DNA of 64,000 nucleotides from Pseudobdellovibrionaceae bacterium (GTDB lineage: Bacteria > Bdellovibrionota > Bdellovibrionia > Bdellovibrionales > JAMPXM01), in assembly GCA_947462815.1 (NCBI GenBank), contig CANHQR010000014.1:800-64799 (forward strand), in the 5' to 3' direction. The notes below the pieces were generated by a model. It was not told the DNA's origin, did no database searches, and worked only from the letters and a program-made list of their open reading frames with translations. A program made the translations under genes and the position numbers. Position 1 is the first letter of the stretch. Each line of letters begins with the position of its first letter. Positions 6,940 to 40,332 of this stretch are shown piece by piece.

Positions 6940-7426
6940 TGTGAAATCGAGATCTGAAGACACGGCGATGGTGGGGCCAACGGCCATTCATCGGCAGTTG
7001 GATTTGATTCGACGGGGCGAGCTCGATCGTTTCGTGGTTCGCCTTCGCTCGGGCGTTCTCGTCATGGGAGAAACGCAGCCGCTCCTTGGGTATTTTTTGC
7101 TGCTCGCTGATCCTGTGGTGCCGCACTTCAACGCTTTGGTCTCGGAAGCTCGAGCGCAATGGGCTCTCGACTTGGGCGCCATCGGCGATGCGCTGCTTGA
7201 GGAGTCTGGGATCTTGCGCGTGAACTACGAAACCTGGGGGAATTTAGATCCTGCATTGCACACGCATATTGTCCCGCGCTCTCGACATGAGGATCCCGCC
7301 AAAGCTCGTCTTCCGGCGCGTGAGGCCTATGACTACGCTCAGAGTCCGCGTTTCGATTTGCAGAATCTCGAACATCGAGCTGTGTTTGAACGATTGCGAG
7401 CCCGACTCAAGGCCCTATCGGTTTGA
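6932..7426 (+). CDS. HIT-superfamily-like protein
   Basis: ATG 6932 overlaps the upstream stop (6937-6939) by 8 nt. The sequence NYETWGNLDPALHTHIVPRSRHED resembles the HIT histidine-triad region, but the first His is Ala. Confidence 0.5.
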   Translation: MSDVKSRSEDTAMVGPTAIHRQLDLIRRGELDRFVVRLRSGVLVMGETQPLLGYFLLLADPVVPHFNALVSEARAQWALDLGAIGDALLEESGILRVNYETWGNLDPALHTHIVPRSRHEDPAKARLPAREAYDYAQSPRFDLQNLEHRAVFERLRARLKALSV

Positions 7427-8539
7427 ATCGTTTCGGTCGGGAAGTTGCGAGAGAATCGGAAAGTCCGCATCGCCGATTCGCCACTCTTGGCGTTCGTCTT
7501 GACCGCGCTTCTCAAAGTTTGTCGGCGCACTCGGCCACTCCAAAAGATCACCGCGTCGGCAGGTAGGTTCGGGGCTTTGTCGGCGATTGGGAAACCACGA
7601 CAAAAAGGCGCGATCGCCGTCGGAGCAAGTGAGGGTTCGCGACTTCCCCTTTTCGGCGAGCACATCGCCGACCACGCGAAGTAGGGGTCTTGAAGACGGC
7701 GCTGGAGGGGGAGTCTTGCGTGCCAGCAAATACGAAAACGTGAGTCGTTGATTCTTCATCGGCAGGTGGGCTTCGAGATCGAGCCACCACGGAGGGGCGG
7801 GGTATTCGATGGCGTCGTGACACCAGTCCCGTTCATCGCGAAGCAATGGGCAAGGCTTGGCATGCGGGCATGGTGCCCAGATGTGAAAACCCTGGGCCAT
7901 GAGAGTTTCTCGACGAGCCTGCAAGCGTCGTGCATCGTCGCGAGTTGAAGGTTCGAGGATCATCAGGGCTTCGAGCTCAAACACCCAACTTGGAATCTCG
8001 GTGTTCTCGGTCAGCACGTGGGCCAACACGGCGAGACTTCGGCGGGGATCGTCGAGGTTCTGGGGTCGTGTCTCGAGTCGAGCTGTCGTGTGTCGAGTGT
8101 GCGAAGGGAGTTCGGCCACCTGCAGAGCGAACTCGAGAATGGCTGATGACACATCGCGAAGCTCAAGGCTTGTCCAGCTCTGCTGAAGGGAAAGCGCTTG
8201 TGCCGCGGCTCCGCTGCCAGATCCCAAATCATAGAGATGGTGGAGGTCGTTCAAAAAACCGAGGTGTCGCCCGCGCTCGGCCGCAGCCCAGACGCGTGTC
8301 AGATTGAGGGGGTGATAGTAACTGAAGAGGGCATGGCGAGCCCAGGGCTCGTGCCAAGGCGAGACAGCGCTTGGGGAATGGATGTAGTAGTTCGAGAGCT
8401 GGCGAATCTGATCAGCGATTTGTTGTGGGGCGAGGCTTTGAGCGCTGGCCGGCAGACGAGAGGGCAGTCGGGCCAGCTGCGCTTGCAGTTCGAGCCATTT
8501 CGAATTCGATTTGTCAGATGCATGAAGCCCTTGGCTCAT
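7415..8539 (-). CDS. Rsm22-like SAM-dependent methyltransferase
   Basis: The SAM motif I is LYDLGSGSGAAAQAL. The C-terminal Cys/His cluster APCPHAKPCPLLRDERDWCH is typical of the Rsm22/COG5459 family. The start is ambiguous (8539 or 8617); 8617 would overlap the divergent bcp start. Confidence 0.55.
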   Translation of the reverse strand: MSQGLHASDKSNSKWLELQAQLARLPSRLPASAQSLAPQQIADQIRQLSNYYIHSPSAVSPWHEPWARHALFSYYHPLNLTRVWAAAERGRHLGFLNDLHHLYDLGSGSGAAAQALSLQQSWTSLELRDVSSAILEFALQVAELPSHTRHTTARLETRPQNLDDPRRSLAVLAHVLTENTEIPSWVFELEALMILEPSTRDDARRLQARRETLMAQGFHIWAPCPHAKPCPLLRDERDWCHDAIEYPAPPWWLDLEAHLPMKNQRLTFSYLLARKTPPPAPSSRPLLRVVGDVLAEKGKSRTLTCSDGDRAFLSWFPNRRQSPEPTCRRGDLLEWPSAPTNFEKRGQDERQEWRIGDADFPILSQLPDRNDSNR

Positions 8540-8602
8540 GGGAGAGTCTCGCGCAGAATGACGAGAACGAGCAACGTTTTGAGATCCTTTGAAGGAGGCA
8601 GC

Positions 8603-9370
8603 ATGGCTCAAAAGCATGTCACGAAATCCAAGCCTGCGAAATCGAAAAGCGCGAAATCCGTTTCGGCGAACTCGAAGAGCGCAAAAGCTGTGACTTCGAA
8701 GTTGCGCAAGTCCAAAGGAGCGGCGGCGGCTCAGTCCCCATCGGGAAAAAAGAAGCCGACCACACGAAAGTTCCCGGCCTCAACGGTGGGTCGAAGTTCG
8801 AAGAAGGTCCACGCTAAAAAAGTGAAGGTGGTAAAGGACAACGCGAAGAAAGCCACGCCAAAGAGCGGCGGGACGGTGAAACGCGTGATGGCCCACAAAA
8901 ATGTGCCGAGTCTTGTCGGGCACAGCGTGACGAACTTGCGTTTGGAGGCCACGGGTGGTCGTGAAGTCTCGCTGGCGGATTATTTGGGTCAACTCGTCGT
9001 GCTGTACTTTTATCCCAAAGACAACACGCCCGGTTGCACGATGGAGAGTCAGGACTTCTCGCGCCTCAGCCGGGAGTTTTCGGCAGCGGGAGCTGTGGTT
9101 TTGGGATGCTCGCGCGACTCAGTGAAGTCGCATGAGAGTTTTAAGGCCAAGTATAATCTCGGATTTGATTTGCTCTCGGATCCTTCCGAGAGTTTTTGTC
9201 GCAGCTTTCATGTGATTCAGATGAAGAGCCTGTATGGGCGCCAGTTTGAAGGCGTCGAGCGTTCCACCTTTGTGGTGAGTCGTGAAGGCGTGGTGCTGAA
9301 GGAGTGGCGCCAAGTGAAGGTTGCCGGGCACGCCGAAGAGGTCCTCAACTACATCCGAACCTCGACTTAA
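8603..9370 (+). CDS. bcp: thiol peroxidase Bcp (peroxiredoxin) with about 100-aa lysine-rich N-terminal extension
   Basis: ATG 8603 has GAAGGAGG at 8591-8598. The Prx core is VVLYFYPKDNTPGCTMESQDF...VVLGCSRDSVKSHESFKAKY...RSTFVV. The N-terminal 99 aa hold 26 Lys, 4 Arg and 1 acidic residue (my count). Confidence 0.85.
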   Translation: MAQKHVTKSKPAKSKSAKSVSANSKSAKAVTSKLRKSKGAAAAQSPSGKKKPTTRKFPASTVGRSSKKVHAKKVKVVKDNAKKATPKSGGTVKRVMAHKNVPSLVGHSVTNLRLEATGGREVSLADYLGQLVVLYFYPKDNTPGCTMESQDFSRLSREFSAAGAVVLGCSRDSVKSHESFKAKYNLGFDLLSDPSESFCRSFHVIQMKSLYGRQFEGVERSTFVVSREGVVLKEWRQVKVAGHAEEVLNYIRTST

Positions 9371-9398
9371 GTCCCGTAGCTAAAACGGAGAAGGCTGC

Positions 9399-10091
9399 AT
9401 GCGTGTTTATGACATTAGCCCGCTCATCAGCTCTCGCTTGGGAGTTTTCCCCGGGGATCAAAAATTTGAGCGCCACGTCGTCATGAGCTTTGCGGCGGGT
9501 CATCATCTGGAGCTCTCGCGGATCACCAGCACTTTGCATCTTGGCGCCCACGCGGATTCTCCGGGTCATTATTCCGCCGAAGGTGGGGGCATACATGCGG
9601 TTGACGTCCGCCGTTATCTCGGGCCATGCATGGTGGTGGATGCACTTCATGCGCGAGGCCGGCGCGTGGGGTGGCAGGATCTTGATGATGAAGCGCGAGA
9701 GATGTTGACCTCGCCAACACCAAGAGTCCTGGTTCGCACCCTGAGCTTTCCAGATCCCGAGAAATGGAATTCGGATTTTGCGAGTTTTGAGCCGGAGTTT
9801 TTGGAAGATTTGGCCTCTTCGGGTGTGCAGCTGGTCGGTATCGATACGCCATCCGTCGATCCCGAGACCTCGAAAGATCTTCCCGCCCATGCAATGCTGG
9901 CTCGCTACCAAATGAGTGTGTTGGAAGGGTTGATGTTGGGAAGTGTCGTGCAGGGAACTTATGTTCTTGTGGCGGCGCCGTTGAAAATTGAGGGTGCCGA
10001 TTCCGGACCTTGTCGCGCGCTCTTGTTGGAAAGCGAGATTTGGACGATGGATAATCTCGGCGAAATCAAAGAAGTCGTGAAACCCTCATGA
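9399..10091 (+). CDS. kynB: kynurenine formamidase (cyclase family)
   Basis: The cyclase/arylformamidase metal motif is STLHLGAHADSPGHY. The sequence LVGIDTPSVDP is also present, and the length of about 230 aa fits the family. Confidence 0.8.
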   Translation: MRVYDISPLISSRLGVFPGDQKFERHVVMSFAAGHHLELSRITSTLHLGAHADSPGHYSAEGGGIHAVDVRRYLGPCMVVDALHARGRRVGWQDLDDEAREMLTSPTPRVLVRTLSFPDPEKWNSDFASFEPEFLEDLASSGVQLVGIDTPSVDPETSKDLPAHAMLARYQMSVLEGLMLGSVVQGTYVLVAAPLKIEGADSGPCRALLLESEIWTMDNLGEIKEVVKPS

Positions 10092-10798
10092 GTCGGCTTT
10101 TGAAACGAGTCCTGGGTGCGATCGAGCACCACGGGGCCTTGCTCGTGTTTCCGCTCAATAATCGTCCCCAGCCTCTCGCCTTGTGGCATGTGTTGTTTCC
10201 GGATCAGCCTATGAATTGGGAGTGGTCAAACGACGGCGACGATCAAGTCGTTCAGATGTGGCATCTTCGCCGCGAACTGATGGAGAGCGGTCAGATTTAC
10301 TATGGGAAGTTGTTTCGTGGACGGGCCACGGTGTTGTCGCTGTCCGCCTTTGAAGCGGCTTGGAGGCTCACCCAATCGCATCGTGAATTGGGCTTAGTCG
10401 GTGAGGCGAGTGAGATCGCGGAGCTTCTCGACTTCGACTCGCCACTTTCTACGAAGCAACTGAAGTCCGGGACGGAGTTGATGGGTCGAGATAACGAGGC
10501 CCGATTCAACTCGGCCATGAAGAAACTTTGGAGTCATTTGTGGATTGCGGGAGTCGGCGAGGTCGACGAAGGTGCTTTCCCCAGCCTCTCGCACGCTTGG
10601 ACCGCGAGTGTATTGGAGGAGTCTTGCCGAAGAGGTGAGAGGTTGAGTGAAGATCTGTCCCGCGACCTGTGGGAAGATTTGGCCAACGGGCGTGAGCTGC
10701 TCTCTCGACTTTCTCCTTCCGGTGGGACGAAGATTGAGCAGTCGAAGCCCAGACTTCGGCAAGATCAAAGTCGAGTGAAGAAGAAGAGCCCGCGCTAG
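10088..10798 (+). CDS. hypothetical protein (possibly AlkZ/YcaQ-related winged-helix fold; weak)
   Basis: The ATG overlaps the kynB stop (ATGA at 10088-10091). It is a 236-aa soluble protein, and the resemblance to the AlkZ-related family is by recollection only. Confidence 0.45.
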   Translation: MSRLLKRVLGAIEHHGALLVFPLNNRPQPLALWHVLFPDQPMNWEWSNDGDDQVVQMWHLRRELMESGQIYYGKLFRGRATVLSLSAFEAAWRLTQSHRELGLVGEASEIAELLDFDSPLSTKQLKSGTELMGRDNEARFNSAMKKLWSHLWIAGVGEVDEGAFPSLSHAWTASVLEESCRRGERLSEDLSRDLWEDLANGRELLSRLSPSGGTKIEQSKPRLRQDQSRVKKKSPR

Positions 10799-24028: not shown

Positions 24029-24505
24029 TCACTTCAAATGCTGCAAGATCAACTCTCGAAGCGCGGCCGGCTCAGTGGTCGGCGGAATATTTTTGATCTT
24101 CTGGCCATCGGGGCCGATGAGAAACTTGTGAAAGTTCCATTTGATCTCGCCGCCCTCAGGGTCTGTCGAAGTCAGCCAATTGTAGAGAGGGTGCTGATCC
24201 GATCCTTTAACAGAAATCTTTGAAAACATCGGGAAGCTCACTTTGTAATTGGTCGAGCAGAACTCGGCGATTTGCGCATCCGTGCCGGGCTCCTGAGCCA
24301 AAAAGTTGTTGGCGGGAAAACCCAAAACGGTGAAACCGCGACCAGCAAACTCCTCTTGCAGCTTCTGCAGGCCTTCGTACTGAGGTGTGAGCCCGCACTT
24401 ACTCGCCACGTTGACCGCCAAAACCAATTGGCCTTTGTATGCCGAAAGAGATTGCGTCTCACCTTTGATCGTTCTCATCGAAAAGTCATGAAAGCTCTGC
24501 GCCAT
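24029..24505 (-). CDS. glutathione peroxidase (Cys-type)
   Basis: The motifs are LVLAVNVASKCGLTPQYEGLQ, LGFPANNFLAQEPG and KWNFHKFLI. Confidence 0.9.
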   Translation of the reverse strand: MAQSFHDFSMRTIKGETQSLSAYKGQLVLAVNVASKCGLTPQYEGLQKLQEEFAGRGFTVLGFPANNFLAQEPGTDAQIAEFCSTNYKVSFPMFSKISVKGSDQHPLYNWLTSTDPEGGEIKWNFHKFLIGPDGQKIKNIPPTTEPAALRELILQHLK

Positions 24506-26472: not shown

Positions 26473-27516
26473 ATGGAAATGAAGTCGAGACCCAGTTGGT
26501 GGATTTCGGAATCTGAAGTGACGCCCGAAGACACTTATGTGCATCGGCGTGAATTATTGCGCGGACTGGGGTTCATCGGGGCGAGCCAGCTTCTCAAGGA
26601 GATCGCCAACGAATCGGCTTGGGCCCAAGCGAAGGGCCCGAAAACTGGGCCAACTTCTGGGCCAGCGTCAGGGGCCTCTTCTCCATCGGCATCGGGGGGA
26701 GCTGCAATCTACCCGCGCGCCAAAAAATTCGACTTCAAAGATCCGGATCGCCCCGTGACGGAAGAGCGCTTGGTGACTTCGCATAATAATTTCTATGAAT
26801 TCTCTCTGCAAAAGTCCGAAGTGGCACCGCTGGCCAAGAAGTGGACGCCGCCGAACCCTTGGAAAATTCAAGTGGCGGGACTTGTGGAGAAGCCGCTTGA
26901 GCTGGATCTCGACGACATCATGAAGCGTGTGAAGCTCGAAGAGCGTGTGTACCGCTTTCGTTGTGTGGAAGCCTGGTCCATGGTGGTGCCTTGGGGAGGT
27001 TTTGCGCTGAGGGATTTTTTGGCATTGTGTCGGCCCAAGGCCAATGCGAAGTACGTGAAGTTCGTGACTTACCAAGATGAGATCGCCATGCCCAATATCA
27101 AGGGCATGCCTCACTATCCTTGGCCTTACACGGAGGGCTTGAGCTTGGCAGAGGCCCAACACGAGCTGAGCTTTCTGGCGACCGCCATCTATGGAAAGCC
27201 CCTGCCTCAGCAAAACGGTGCTCCACTTCGATTGGTGGTGCCCTGGAAGTATGGTTTTAAGAGTATCAAGTCCATTCATCGGATTGAGTTCACCGACATC
27301 CAACCCAAGACACTCTGGGTTCAGCTTGCGCCTCAAGAGTACGGTTTTTTGGCGAATGTAAATCCCGATGTGGATCATCCACGCTGGACGCAAAAGCGAG
27401 AAACTCGCCTCGATGGAAGCTTCTTTCCAAAGAAAATTCCCACCCTCATGTTCAACGGCTACGCGAATGAGGTGGCAAATCTGTACAAGGGCGTTGATCT
27501 CAAAAAAAACTTTTGA
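26473..27516 (+). CDS. msrP: protein-methionine-sulfoxide reductase catalytic subunit MsrP (molybdopterin)
   Basis: The Tat-like leader is HRRELLRGLGFIGA. The motifs are HNNFYEFS, VYRFRCVEAWSMVVPWGGF and LRLVVPWKYGFKSIKSI. Confidence 0.9.
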   Translation: MEMKSRPSWWISESEVTPEDTYVHRRELLRGLGFIGASQLLKEIANESAWAQAKGPKTGPTSGPASGASSPSASGGAAIYPRAKKFDFKDPDRPVTEERLVTSHNNFYEFSLQKSEVAPLAKKWTPPNPWKIQVAGLVEKPLELDLDDIMKRVKLEERVYRFRCVEAWSMVVPWGGFALRDFLALCRPKANAKYVKFVTYQDEIAMPNIKGMPHYPWPYTEGLSLAEAQHELSFLATAIYGKPLPQQNGAPLRLVVPWKYGFKSIKSIHRIEFTDIQPKTLWVQLAPQEYGFLANVNPDVDHPRWTQKRETRLDGSFFPKKIPTLMFNGYANEVANLYKGVDLKKNF

Positions 27517-27531
27517 GGCTCGGGCCGCCGC

Positions 27532-27888
27532 TTATTTTTTCGAATTTTGGCTTTGGCCTTCGACGATTTCTTGGCCCGAGTGTTTGCGCCAATCGTAGTC
27601 TTTGCTCGCTCGGAGACGATCGTCCCAAGCTTTCCACTTCTGCTCGCTGAACTTATGCAGCACACGGCCTTGGGCATCGAAGATCGCCGGGTCCTTGCCA
27701 AACAAGAAGTCGAATAAAAAGGCAAGCGGCCCGCCCACGCGTCGCCGGAACATGGCTCCCGAAAAGCCGACTCGCGAGTAAGTTCGGCTCTGCGCCGCCA
27801 ACTGCGCGGCACCAAGTGGTGTTGCAGCCGTCGAACGGCCGTCGCCCAAAGGTTGATTCAACAAGTCGGGTCGATCATTGCGATCCAT
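27532..27888 (-). CDS. hypothetical protein
   Basis: ATG 27888 is preceded by GAGGGAG. It is a 118-aa protein with no recognised motif. Confidence 0.35.
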   Translation of the reverse strand: MDRNDRPDLLNQPLGDGRSTAATPLGAAQLAAQSRTYSRVGFSGAMFRRRVGGPLAFLFDFLFGKDPAIFDAQGRVLHKFSEQKWKAWDDRLRASKDYDWRKHSGQEIVEGQSQNSKK

Positions 27889-27935
27889 GTTCACTCCCTC
27901 TAAAGCTCTCGCAAACGCTAACATGGAGTCGATCG

Positions 27936-39998: not shown

Positions 39999-40202
39999 TT
40001 AGAAGTCGTAGCCACGGACCGTCTTGCGACCGTTGTCCTTGCAACGACCCACAGCGGCCTTGATCATCTCGTGAATCTTGCCGCTCAGTGCGTCGACAAC
40101 ATCCGAAGAGACGTTGCAGCCCTGGCTGCGAATGGCGTCTTTCATCTTCGATGCGATCACCAAAACTTCACCTTTTTTTCCGCCTTTGGACTTCTTGGCC
40201 AT
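39999..40202 (-). CDS. bacterial histone-fold DNA-binding protein with Lys-rich N-terminal tail
   Basis: ATG 40202 has AAGGAG 6 nt upstream. The 67-aa product is MAKKSKGGKKGEVLVIASKMKDAIRSQGCNVSSDVVDALSGKIHEMIKAAVGRCKDNGRKTVRGYDF. It has alpha1-L1-long alpha2-L2(GRKTV)-alpha3 spacing like archaeal HMf-type histones. Confidence 0.7.
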   Translation of the reverse strand: MAKKSKGGKKGEVLVIASKMKDAIRSQGCNVSSDVVDALSGKIHEMIKAAVGRCKDNGRKTVRGYDF

Positions 40203-40332
40203 AAACAACTCCTTTTCGAGATCAAACTCGTTGGGGAGATTTCAAAAGGAGGACCGACGCAAGTCAATAGCTGAGTTCGGGACATGCCCGAGGTGGCCCA
40301 CGGCTCGGAAAGTCGGAACTTCGGAATCAGGC

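What the first reader, a model, noticed from the sequence alone, without database searches (positions are those of the whole stretch)
8603..8905. Peroxiredoxin Bcp fused to an H1-like lysine-rich N-terminal extension
**Seen in sequence:** The only strong RBS (GAAGGAGG, 8591-8598) sits in front of ATG 8603. No stop codon separates it from the canonical Bcp core, which begins near residue 100. The first 99 residues contain 26 Lys, 4 Arg and 1 acidic residue (my count). They form KSK/AKK/KKV-type repeats (KSKPAKSKSAKSVSANSKSAKAV...KKVHAKKVKVVKDNAKKATPK).

**Inference:** This composition resembles linker-histone or nucleoid-protein tails. Together with the histone-fold gene in the same window, it suggests a nucleoid-tethered peroxidase, that is, local protection of DNA from peroxide. 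Bcp proteins I know of are about 155-160 aa and lack such tails.
Basis: partly seen in the sequence, partly recalled or inferred. Interest (0 to 1): 0.55.

Follow-up and report, generated by a model that had tools for sequence, protein, structure and literature searches.

The report
Peroxidase with a lysine-rich disordered tail
A peroxide-removing enzyme (PrxQ/Bcp type) from a Bdellovibrio-group bacterium carries a real, conserved 100-residue lysine-rich floppy tail that probably holds it on DNA or another negatively charged polymer, a design shared by at least 160 distinct relatives but apparently never described.

Summary
ORF 8603-9370 (+) encodes 255 aa, and GAAGGAGG lies 4 nt upstream of the ATG. 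Residues 1-99 hold 26 K, 4 R and 1 D, giving pI about 12 and net +29 over residues 1-102. Residues about 103-255 are a complete PrxQ/BCP peroxiredoxin with an invariant P138/T142/C145/R220 active site.

The tail is translated. Four orthologs (71-77% identity) keep the same N-terminus and Shine-Dalgarno site, all indels are in frame, and tail dN/dS is 0.12-0.26.

The design is not a one-off. In a profile search, 119 of the 120 best hits carry K/A/T/S-rich tails of about 14-165 aa. Every tailed hit that has an organism name is from Bdellovibrionota, and the named tailless neighbours are Proteobacteria.

AlphaFold2 predicts a disordered tail with no signal-peptide features and no family match. 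It is H1-like in composition only.

The most likely role is an electrostatic tether to a polyanion, DNA first, that keeps a thiol peroxidase on the nucleoid. This parallels Dps tails and the chromatin-bound Plasmodium PfnPrx. Binding itself is inferred and was not tested.

The histone-fold gene exists (40002-40205, -) but lies 31 kb away. It marks the lineage and is not a linked partner.

Verdict: a new variant of a known kind, of moderate interest.

The parts
8591..8598 (+). Shine-Dalgarno site GAAGGAGG, 4 nt upstream of the start codon
   Evidence: Read directly from the sequence. Duplex energy with the anti-SD is -11.7 kcal/mol, in the top 0.2% of window positions. An equivalent GGAGG site precedes the long start in orthologs L013, L015 and L017 and in distant homologs L018-L021.
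8603..9370 (+). Complete CDS: 255-aa tailed PrxQ/BCP peroxiredoxin, stop codon included
   Evidence: The identical protein (P0001) is called on independent ENA and Logan assemblies.
8603..8908 (+). Coding region for the lysine-rich disordered N-terminal tail (residues 1-102; net charge +29)
   Evidence: Composition. AlphaFold2 gives pLDDT 48-62 and no secondary structure. dN/dS is 0.12-0.26 and all indels are in frame in four orthologs. No Pfam, NCBIfam or phmmer match to the tail.
8873..8899 (+). Conserved tail motif TVKRVMAHK (residues 91-99) just upstream of the core; it reads VKRTSAQK in more distant relatives
   Evidence: 32 family members match VKR[TKV][SM]A at this place. Its function is unexplained.
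8888..8890 (+). Internal ATG (Met96), a possible minor alternative start
   Evidence: Its SD-like site is moderate in the window (-7.8 kcal/mol, top 3.4%) and weak in orthologs (-4.0 to -5.6). The residue is Ser in the VKRTSAQK relatives. Only 38 of 160 tailed proteins have any Met within -10..+2 of the core start.
8909..9367 (+). PrxQ/BCP peroxiredoxin core (residues 103-255); the peroxidatic Cys145 codon is at 9035-9037
   Evidence: Pfam AhpC-TSA E 9e-33. Xanthomonas PrxQ 5iph E 3e-46. Foldseek target-normalised TM 0.88-0.94 to BCP/PrxQ structures. pLDDT 88-98. P138, T142, C145 and R220 are invariant in 51 sequences.
7415..8539 (-). Divergently transcribed Rsm22-like methyltransferase gene; the 63-nt intergenic region is shared with bcp
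   Evidence: Pfam Rsm22 E 1.5e-19. The same arrangement occurs in L001, L013, L015, L017 and L018.
9399..10091 (+). Downstream gene, Cyclase family (kynurenine-formamidase-like), 28 nt after the bcp stop; probably co-transcribed
   Evidence: Pfam Cyclase E 1.1e-16. Synteny is conserved in five related loci, and in L018 a Trp_dioxygenase gene follows.
10088..10798 (+). AlkZ-related gene that overlaps the cyclase gene by 4 nt
   Evidence: Pfam AlkZ-rel E 3.9e-14. Synteny is conserved.
40002..40205 (-). Bacterial histone-fold gene (67 aa; context only, a lineage marker)
   Evidence: Found by an SD-guided ORF scan. PDB matches: 9qt0 E 1.7e-8 and B. bacteriovorus HBb 8cmp/8fvx E 1.5e-6 to 3e-6. Pfam CBFD_NFYB_HMF E 0.0066, below the gathering cut-off.

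Best explanation
The gene encodes a single polypeptide with two parts.

**Core.** The C-terminal 153 residues form a catalytically complete PrxQ/BCP-type thiol peroxidase. It has no resolving Cys at the canonical positions, so it is presumably recycled by thioredoxin or another thiol.

**Tail.** The N-terminal ~102 residues are an intrinsically disordered polycation (net +29, lysine-based). The tail is translated, is under purifying selection, and is inherited throughout a large Bdellovibrionota clade of these enzymes.

**Proposed mechanism (inferred).** The tail binds a polyanion through non-specific, dynamic electrostatic contacts. Chromosomal DNA in the very compact nucleoid of these bacteria is the most likely partner. 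Peroxidase activity would then be concentrated next to the genome, removing H2O2 and organic hydroperoxides before Fenton chemistry or lipid-peroxide products can damage DNA.

**Shown here:** the gene structure, translation of the long form, tail conservation, predicted disorder, an intact active site, and the lineage distribution.

**Inferred:** polyanion binding, DNA as the partner, and the protective benefit.
For: **The long form is real.**
- A strong Shine-Dalgarno site precedes 8603 and the equivalent starts in eight related loci.
- The N-terminus M-x-x-KHVTKSK is conserved, and all indels are in frame.
- Tail dN/dS is 0.12-0.26. This includes the unsaturated pair L013/L015, with dS 0.42 and dN/dS 0.19.
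- 122 of 160 tailed relatives have no Met near the tail/core junction.

**The trait is inherited and specific to this enzyme.**
- 72 of the 120 best hits to the single sequence, and 119 of the 120 best hits to the profile, are tailed.
- A protein's tail state matches that of its nearest core-sequence neighbour in 97% of 207 proteins.
- Tailed proteins with organism names (Pseudobdellovibrionaceae, Bdellovibrionota, Bdellovibrionales x2, Bdellovibrionaceae UBA2339) occur in both tailed clusters.
- In the 64-kb window, and in about 80 kb around four distant tailed genes, Bcp is essentially the only K-rich ORF.
- The tail persists although synteny differs between loci.

**The physical properties fit a polyanion tether.**
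- Pooled over 158 tails: K 33.6%, A 18.8%, T+S 19.5%, D+E 1.6%.
- The tail uses lysine although the local proteome prefers arginine (K 4.0%, R 8.3%).
- AlphaFold2 predicts disorder.
- There is no hydrophobic segment and no RR motif.

**The enzyme looks active.** The active-site residues are invariant, and the best solved matches are PrxQ/BCP structures.

**Precedents.**
- PfnPrx pairs an AhpC-TSA domain with a Lys-rich tail and associates with chromatin genome-wide (PMC3064226).
- Lys-rich N-terminal extensions of Deinococcus Dps1 and HU are implicated in DNA association (PMC6300522).
- The H1-like AlgP tail binds DNA (PMC9239181).
Against: - No binding or localisation data exist for any member. 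I found no paper on it.
- A polycationic tail would also bind rRNA, polyphosphate (as AlgP does) or anionic lipids. Nothing computed here discriminates among these partners.
- The tail matches no DNA-binding family. SPKK-type minor-groove motifs are rare: 4 [ST]P[KR][KR] in 7,624 tail residues.
- Gene neighbourhood gives only weak DNA-related context. An AlkZ-related gene is nearby but is mixed with kynurenine-pathway genes, and other tailed bcp genes sit beside the dcw cluster.
- A minor short isoform starting at Met96 cannot be excluded in this subclade.
Confidence: 0.5

Rival explanations
1. The tail tethers the peroxidase to a polyanion other than DNA. Candidates are ribosomes or RNA, or polyphosphate granules. 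The enzyme would then protect the translation machinery or sit on granules rather than on the chromosome.
For: The same physical properties apply: net +29, disordered, almost no acidic residues. The H1-like AlgP tail localises to polyphosphate granules and also binds DNA (PMC9239181). RNA is the most abundant cellular polyanion (general knowledge).
Against: The tail uses lysine, not arginine, in a proteome that prefers arginine. K/A-rich tails of this type are documented mainly on DNA-binding proteins: Dps1 and HU, AlgP and PfnPrx. There is no RGG or arginine-rich patch. No ribosomal or polyP genes lie nearby, except one Ribosomal_S30AE gene at the edge of L021.
Confidence: 0.2
2. The polybasic tail holds the enzyme on the anionic inner membrane (phosphatidylglycerol, cardiolipin), so that a lipid-hydroperoxide-preferring PrxQ works at the membrane surface.
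For: BCP/PrxQ enzymes reduce organic and fatty-acid hydroperoxides; this rests on general knowledge of E. coli Bcp and on the Xanthomonas 'alkyl peroxide reduction' structures listed. Polybasic segments can bind acidic lipids.
Against: The tail has no amphipathic helix, no hydrophobic or aromatic anchor (1 Phe, 0 Trp/Tyr in 102 residues; maximum hydropathy -0.05) and no lipidation motif. Purely electrostatic membrane binding is usually weak.
Confidence: 0.1
3. The tail does not localise the enzyme. It acts as a solubility or 'entropic bristle' element, controls oligomerisation or chaperone activity, docks a reductant, or is a regulated site (for example phosphorylation of its many Ser/Thr residues or of the conserved KR-T-S motif).
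For: Conserved sequence islands lie within an otherwise variable tail, including VKR[TKV][SM]A in 32 proteins. D. radiodurans PrxQ has reported chaperone activity (PMC6590489 abstract).
Against: Across the family, charge and composition are conserved but sequence is not, and tail length varies from 14 to 165 residues. This pattern fits bulk electrostatics better than a specific docking site. The motif is confined to one subclade.
Confidence: 0.12
4. The tail is not made. Translation starts at the internal Met96 (ATG 8888), and the upstream K-rich frame is an annotation artefact.
For: Some pipelines call short forms: P0210 (160 aa, equal to a Met96 start) and P0211 (150 aa; HAG90512.1, MAV91757.1). 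A moderate SD-like site lies upstream of ATG 8888 (-7.8 kcal/mol).
Against: Tail dN/dS is 0.12-0.26 and all indels are in frame. GC3 of the tail equals that of the core. The strong SD site lies at the long start in every locus examined. Most relatives have no junction Met. A chance 26% Lys frame has P of about 1e-14.
Confidence: 0.04
5. The extension is an export or targeting signal (Sec, Tat or lipoprotein), or a signal for delivery into prey.
For: The extension is N-terminal and the lineage is predatory (context only).
Against: There is no hydrophobic h-region (maximum 12-aa hydropathy -0.05), no twin-arginine motif and no lipobox Cys. A length of 100 residues and a charge of +29 are incompatible with known signal peptides.
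Confidence: 0.02

Closest known systems
Bacterial PrxQ/BCP peroxiredoxins (Xanthomonas campestris PrxQ 5iph/3gkk, Xylella PrxQ 3ixr, Burkholderia 5enu, E. coli Bcp)
   Same: The catalytic core matches: about 52% identity to Xanthomonas PrxQ, E 3e-46, target-normalised TM 0.88-0.94. The PxxxTxxC motif and the catalytic Arg are present.
   Different: The solved proteins are 160-179 aa and have no polycationic tail. The window protein lacks a resolving Cys at both the alpha2 (+5) and alpha3 positions (Gln150, Lys181).
Plasmodium falciparum nuclear peroxiredoxin PfnPrx (formerly MCP1)
   Same: An AhpC-TSA peroxidase domain is joined to a highly basic lysine-rich region. The protein associates with chromatin genome-wide. 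Its authors proposed the same logic of keeping the enzyme on DNA (PMC3064226).
   Different: It is eukaryotic. The Lys-rich region is C-terminal and is preceded by an acidic Glu-rich region. The origin is presumably independent; sequence relatedness of the tails was not tested.
Yeast nuclear thiol peroxidase nTPx/Dot5 (PDB 2a4v)
   Same: It has a BCP-type fold (target-normalised TM 0.82). From my own knowledge, it is a nuclear BCP-family enzyme with an N-terminal extension; the crystal structure is of a truncated form.
   Different: Its extension works through nuclear import, not as a long polycationic tether. Identity is only 26%.
Dps (E. coli Dps, Deinococcus Dps1) and Deinococcus HU, which have lysine-rich N-terminal extensions
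   Same: The design principle matches: an oxidative-stress or nucleoid protein with a flexible Lys-rich N-terminal extension proposed to mediate DNA association (PMC6300522).
   Different: The folds and chemistry differ (ferritin-like ferroxidase dodecamer; HU dimer). Their tails are much shorter than 100 residues.
Linker histone H1 C-terminal domain and bacterial H1-like proteins (Pseudomonas AlgP)
   Same: They share K/A-rich, acid-poor, disordered composition. The AlgP tail binds DNA and polyP granules.
   Different: The window protein has no globular H1 domain and no detectable homology. Its tail has less Pro (about 5%) and more Ser/Thr. It is attached to an enzyme, whereas H1 and AlgP are architectural proteins.

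Membership tests
Peroxiredoxin superfamily, PrxQ/BCP subfamily | AhpC-TSA domain scoring above Pfam's gathering threshold | tested here: met
   PF00578 scores 113.2 bits against a cut-off of 26, covering residues 105-231.
Peroxiredoxin superfamily, PrxQ/BCP subfamily | Active-site PxxxTxxC motif with the peroxidatic Cys, plus the conserved catalytic Arg | tested here: met
   P138, T142, C145 and R220 are present and invariant in 51 aligned family members.
Peroxiredoxin superfamily, PrxQ/BCP subfamily | Closest solved structures by sequence and by fold are PrxQ/BCP, not AhpC, Tpx or Prx5/6 | tested here: met
   The top PDB sequence hits are all BCP/PrxQ (E 3e-46 to 3e-44). The top 20 Foldseek hits are BCP/PrxQ-type, with target-normalised TM up to 0.94.
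NCBIfam equivalogs PrxQ (NF053650) and thioredoxin-dependent thiol peroxidase Bcp (NF006960) | Score above the curated equivalog cut-off | tested here: not met
   145.9 bits against a cut-off of 260, and 109.5 against 140. These are the best-matching families, but the protein does not qualify as an equivalog of either.
Atypical 2-Cys PrxQ | Resolving Cys in helix alpha2 (CP+5) or alpha3 | tested here: not met
   The residues are Gln150 and Lys181. About one third of PrxQ members lack a resolving Cys (PMC4749874), so this does not exclude PrxQ membership; it makes this a 1-Cys-type member. Cys169 and Cys199 are present, but their roles are unknown.
Peroxiredoxin superfamily, PrxQ/BCP subfamily | Thiol-dependent peroxidase activity | not testable with these tools
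   Needs an enzyme assay with Trx/TrxR and H2O2 or an organic hydroperoxide.
Linker histone H1 / bacterial Hc1-type histone-like proteins | Homologous domain (globular winged-helix H1 domain, or an Hc1/Hc2 family match) | tested here: not met
   No Pfam or NCBIfam hit in residues 1-101, even at relaxed E-value thresholds of 1 and 0.1. phmmer of the tail against 1.84 billion representatives gave 0 hits.
H1-C-terminal-domain-like polycationic tails (a compositional class, not a homology family) | Disordered segment rich in Lys and Ala, with almost no acidic residues | tested here: met
   Of the first 99 residues, 26 are K, 15 A and 15 S, with only 1 D/E. pLDDT is 48-62 with no secondary structure. 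Pro is only 5%, lower than in H1 tails (that comparison is from my own knowledge).
Nucleoid-associated proteins | Binds DNA and co-localises or co-fractionates with the nucleoid | not testable with these tools
   No experimental data were found. The Hocher 2023 supplements as stored name peroxiredoxins only for Leptospira.
Sec/Tat/lipoprotein signal peptides | Hydrophobic h-region, twin-arginine motif or lipobox | tested here: not met
   Maximum 12-aa hydropathy is -0.05, there is no RR motif, and there is no Cys in the tail.
Bdellovibrionota tailed-Bcp clade (defined here) | PrxQ core clustering with tailed relatives, plus an N-terminal tail of at least 12 aa with at least 20% Lys | tested here: met
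   The window protein falls in tailed cluster 3 together with named Pseudobdellovibrionaceae and Bdellovibrionota proteins.

The most novel reading that the evidence does not exclude
The tailed Bcp is a true chromatin component of histone-bearing Bdellovibrionota. Its H1-like tail would bind and help condense or bridge DNA alongside the HBb histone, while the attached PrxQ domain removes peroxides in place. That would make it a bacterial, convergently evolved counterpart of the chromatin-bound PfnPrx of Plasmodium, inherited across much of a phylum.
Probability: 0.15. Interest if true: 0.75.

Novelty: new variant of a known kind. Interest (0 to 1): 0.48.

Why it matters
**A recurrent design.** If the tail does tether the enzyme to the nucleoid, bacteria would use the same solution seen in Dps and in the malaria parasite's nuclear peroxiredoxin: antioxidant chemistry placed directly on the genome by a cheap disordered polycation. 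Here the solution would be fixed across a large clade of predatory, histone-bearing bacteria whose nucleoid is unusually compact.

**An easy experimental handle.** One small soluble protein, with or without its tail, can test how bacterial disordered polycationic tails choose between DNA, RNA, polyphosphate and membrane.

**A practical annotation point.** Public gene calls for this family are inconsistent: some pipelines cut the tail off. Domain-architecture surveys that rely on those calls will therefore under-count it.

Tried and rejected
- **Tail-only homology search.** phmmer of residues 1-101 against 1.84 billion representatives gave 0 hits at E <= 0.001. Pfam and NCBIfam also found nothing on the tail. 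The tail therefore cannot be traced as a mobile module. Composition-bias correction probably also hides true orthologs.
- **Tandem DNA repeats.** None were found in 8500-9000. The tail is not a recent microsatellite-like expansion, although orthologs differ by in-frame indels of 10-15 codons.
- **Internal promoter.** No sigma70-like site lies on the + strand within the tail-coding region. The scan is weak for this lineage.
- **Second K-rich hit.** The hit at 27531-27620 (-) lies in an alternative frame of another gene, so I rejected it as non-coding.
- **Histone-fold gene search.** tblastn with HMfB and with a recalled HBb sequence, a regex, and Pfam on 30 small ORFs all missed it. An SD-guided ORF scan found it.
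- **Longer N-terminus.** A start at an upstream in-frame ATG (8522 or 8558) was rejected. Those codons are antisense to the Rsm22 start, lack an SD site, and are absent in L018.
- **Family-wide dual isoforms.** Rejected, because only 38 of 160 tailed proteins have a Met near the tail/core junction.
- **Literature.** Searches for Bdellovibrio plus Bcp, peroxiredoxin or lysine-rich found nothing relevant. The Hocher 2023 nucleoid-proteome supplements as stored name peroxiredoxins only for Leptospira.
- **Tree building.** A Biopython NJ tree timed out. I used UPGMA on identity instead, which is a clustering and not a phylogeny.
- **Taxonomy of unnamed relatives.** The single genome-contig scan returned only one close relative with an organism name. 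I could not establish the taxonomy of most unnamed tailed relatives.
Full report
**1. What is in the sequence**

The + strand ORF from ATG 8603 to TAA 9368-9370 encodes 255 residues. GAAGGAGG lies at 8591-8598, 4 nt upstream of the ATG. Its predicted pairing with the anti-Shine-Dalgarno sequence is -11.7 kcal/mol, stronger than at 99.8% of positions sampled in the window.

Over residues 1-102:
- Net charge is +29.
- The most hydrophobic 12-residue stretch scores -0.05.
- There is no twin-arginine motif and no Cys.

This composition is far from chance:
- Lysine is 4.0% of residues in 42 other long ORFs of the window, against 8.3% for arginine.
- The richest 99-residue stretch in any of those ORFs has 14 Lys.
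- The binomial probability of at least 26 Lys is about 1e-14.
- Third-position GC is the same in tail and core (0.667 and 0.656).

From about residue 103 onward the protein is an ordinary peroxiredoxin:
- Pfam AhpC-TSA covers residues 105-231 (E 9e-33).
- The best solved relatives are Xanthomonas PrxQ/Bcp (E 3e-46, about 52% identity), Burkholderia 5enu and Xylella PrxQ.
- The AlphaFold2 model of the core (pLDDT 88-98) superposes on those structures with target-normalised TM 0.88-0.94.

**2. Is the tail translated?**

Four close orthologs were recovered from independent assemblies: L013/L003, L015 and L017, at 71-77% identity.
- All keep the N-terminus M-(A/S)-(Q/K)-KHVTKS(K/R), preceded by a GGAGG-type site. 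In L017 this requires moving the public gene codons upstream.
- All length differences in the tail are whole codons.
- Nei-Gojobori dN/dS for the tail is 0.12-0.26, against 0.015-0.08 for the core. This includes the unsaturated pair L013/L015, with dS 0.42 and dN/dS 0.19.
- The tail therefore evolves faster than the enzyme but is clearly under purifying selection as protein.

The internal Met96 (ATG 8888) has only a moderate SD-like site in the window (-7.8 kcal/mol) and weak ones in the orthologs (-4.0 to -5.6). In more distant relatives the corresponding residue is Ser (VKRTSAQK). Among 160 tailed family members, only 38 have any Met within -10 to +2 of the core start. A tailless isoform is therefore not a general property of the family, though a minor one in this subclade cannot be excluded.

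In-frame ATGs further upstream (8522, 8558) are antisense to the start of the divergent Rsm22-like gene. They lack an SD site and are absent in L018, so I rejected them.

**3. A family, not a curiosity**

- With the window protein as query, 72 of the 120 best database hits carry an N-terminal Lys-rich extension.
- With a profile of 51 tailed sequences, 119 of the 120 best hits do.
- Tails run from 14 to 165 residues, with a median of 48.
- Pooled composition over 158 tails is K 33.6%, A 18.8%, T 10.8%, S 8.7%, V 6.4%, P 4.5%, R 3.3% and D+E 1.6%.
- Clustering on the core alone places tailed proteins in two large groups (64 and 93 members) apart from tailless ones. A protein's tail state equals that of its nearest core neighbour in 97% of cases. 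This is a UPGMA clustering, not a phylogeny.

Every tailed protein that has an organism name is from Bdellovibrionota, and these fall in both tailed clusters:
- Pseudobdellovibrionaceae HRK07304.1
- Bdellovibrionota MES2854594.1
- Bdellovibrionales MGE4131527.1 and MGE0528379.1
- Bdellovibrionaceae UBA2339

The named tailless neighbours are Gamma- and Betaproteobacteria.

The tail is specific to this enzyme. In the 64-kb window, and in about 80 kb around four distant tailed genes, Bcp is essentially the only ORF with such a segment. A glutathione peroxidase and a SufE in the window have none.

Gene context varies between loci:
- Rsm22 | bcp | cyclase | AlkZ-related in the window's subclade. 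This holds out to a 53%-identical homolog, where tryptophan dioxygenase follows.
- Beside the dcw cluster in others.

So the tail travels with the enzyme, not with a neighbourhood.

**4. Nature of the tail**

AlphaFold2 gives pLDDT 48-62 and no secondary structure for residues 1-100. No Pfam or NCBIfam model matches the tail. An exhaustive phmmer search with the tail alone found nothing. There are no tandem DNA repeats.

The tail is therefore 'H1-like' only in composition and disorder. It has no H1 globular domain and no homology to Hc1-type proteins.

Within the variable tail there are conserved islands: MxxKHVTKSK, TSKLRK, RKFxASxxGRSSKKVHAK and GGTVKRVMAHK. The last of these recurs as VKR[TKV][SM]A in 32 proteins whose cores are only about 55% identical. 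I cannot explain this motif.

**5. The enzyme**

P138, T142, C145 and R220 are invariant across 51 family members. The canonical resolving-Cys positions are Gln150 (alpha2) and Lys181 (alpha3). This is a 1-Cys-type PrxQ, like about a third of that subfamily (PMC4749874).

It scores best against the NCBIfam PrxQ and Bcp equivalog models but below their cut-offs. It is a PrxQ/BCP-subfamily member, but not an equivalog of the characterised enzymes.

**6. Mechanism**

*Shown here:* one polypeptide that joins an intact thiol peroxidase to a conserved, disordered, +29 lysine tail.

*Inferred:* the tail binds a polyanion non-specifically and so fixes where the peroxidase works.

DNA is the favoured partner for three reasons:
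- Documented K/A-rich tails of this type mostly sit on DNA-associated proteins: Deinococcus Dps1 and HU (PMC6300522), AlgP (PMC9239181) and PfnPrx (PMC3064226).
- Lysine is used against the proteome's arginine preference.
- In this lineage the nucleoid is very compact. This last point comes from the Bdellovibrio literature listed, not from anything computed here.

RNA or ribosomes, polyphosphate (which AlgP also binds) and anionic membrane remain open alternatives. Nothing computed here separates them. I put about 0.93 on the long form being real, about 0.6 on a polyanion tether, and about 0.4-0.45 on DNA specifically.

**7. The histone-fold gene**

The gene exists at 40002-40205 (-). It encodes 67 aa, has a strong SD site, and matches bacterial histones 9qt0 (E 1.7e-8) and B. 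bacteriovorus HBb 8cmp/8fvx (about 1e-6). It lies 31 kb from bcp with no conserved linkage. It supports the lineage assignment to Bdellovibrionota. It does not by itself support a functional pairing with the peroxidase.

**8. Comparison with what is known, and novelty**

- The core is a standard PrxQ/BCP.
- The closest functional precedent is Plasmodium PfnPrx: an AhpC-TSA domain plus a Lys-rich tail, chromatin-bound. There the tail is C-terminal and the protein is eukaryotic.
- Yeast nuclear nTPx/Dot5 is a BCP-fold enzyme (2a4v, target-normalised TM 0.82) that reaches DNA by nuclear import (own knowledge).
- Dps shares the logic but has a different fold.
- Ten literature searches found no description of a bacterial tailed Bcp/PrxQ. 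The library does not cover subscription journals.
- Public annotation calls these proteins simply 'peroxiredoxin' and sometimes trims the tail (P0210, P0211).

I therefore rate this a new variant of a known kind. It is real, conserved and easily testable, but its proposed function rests on analogy.

Noticed in passing
window 40002-40205 (-): Bacterial histone-fold gene (67 aa, strong SD site) related to B. bacteriovorus HBb/Bd0055 and to PDB 9qt0. It has about 8 extra N-terminal residues (MAKKSKGG) compared with HBb, a miniature Lys-rich tail of its own.
   Followed up: partly
P0210, P0211 (HAG90512.1, MAV91757.1), and P0004 at L017 1766-1813: Public gene calls for tailed Bcp genes are inconsistent. 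Some start at a Met near the tail/core junction (150-160 aa), while mates in the same 90%-identity cluster are 220-255 aa. The P0004 call is 16 codons too short. Surveys that rely on deposited annotations will under-count the tail.
   Followed up: partly
window 8873-8899; same place in P0005-P0028, P0035 and P0121-P0123: A short conserved motif, VKR[TKV][SM]A(Q/H)K, lies at the end of the otherwise variable tail. It is kept in 32 proteins whose cores are only about 55% identical. Its role is unknown; it could be a phospho-site or a docking motif.
   Followed up: no
window 7415-10798; L001, L013, L015, L017, L018: The block Rsm22-like methyltransferase (-) | bcp | Cyclase-family (kynurenine-formamidase-like) | AlkZ-related is conserved. 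In L018 a tryptophan 2,3-dioxygenase gene follows. An AlkZ-related (DNA-repair-like) gene embedded in a kynurenine-pathway context is unexplained.
   Followed up: partly
window positions 169 and 184 of the protein (codons 9107-9109, 9152-9154): 29 of 51 tailed family members have a Cys at the position of Tyr184 (helix alpha3, one turn after the Xanthomonas resolving Cys). The window's subclade lacks it and instead has Cys169, which is Val or Ile in most others. This may be a shifted or alternative resolving Cys.
   Followed up: no
window 24029-24505 (-): A glutathione-peroxidase-family gene (GSHPx, E 7.7e-39) and, elsewhere among the small ORFs, a SufE gene. Neither has a Lys-rich extension.
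   Followed up: no
window, 42 long ORFs: The local proteome is Arg-rich and Lys-poor (R 8.3%, K 4.0%). This makes the lysine-only tail stand out compositionally.
   Followed up: yes
window 27459-27815 (-): A second K-rich stretch (8 K in 30 aa) lies in an alternative frame overlapping ORF 27532-27924 (-). I judged it a non-coding-frame artefact.
   Followed up: partly
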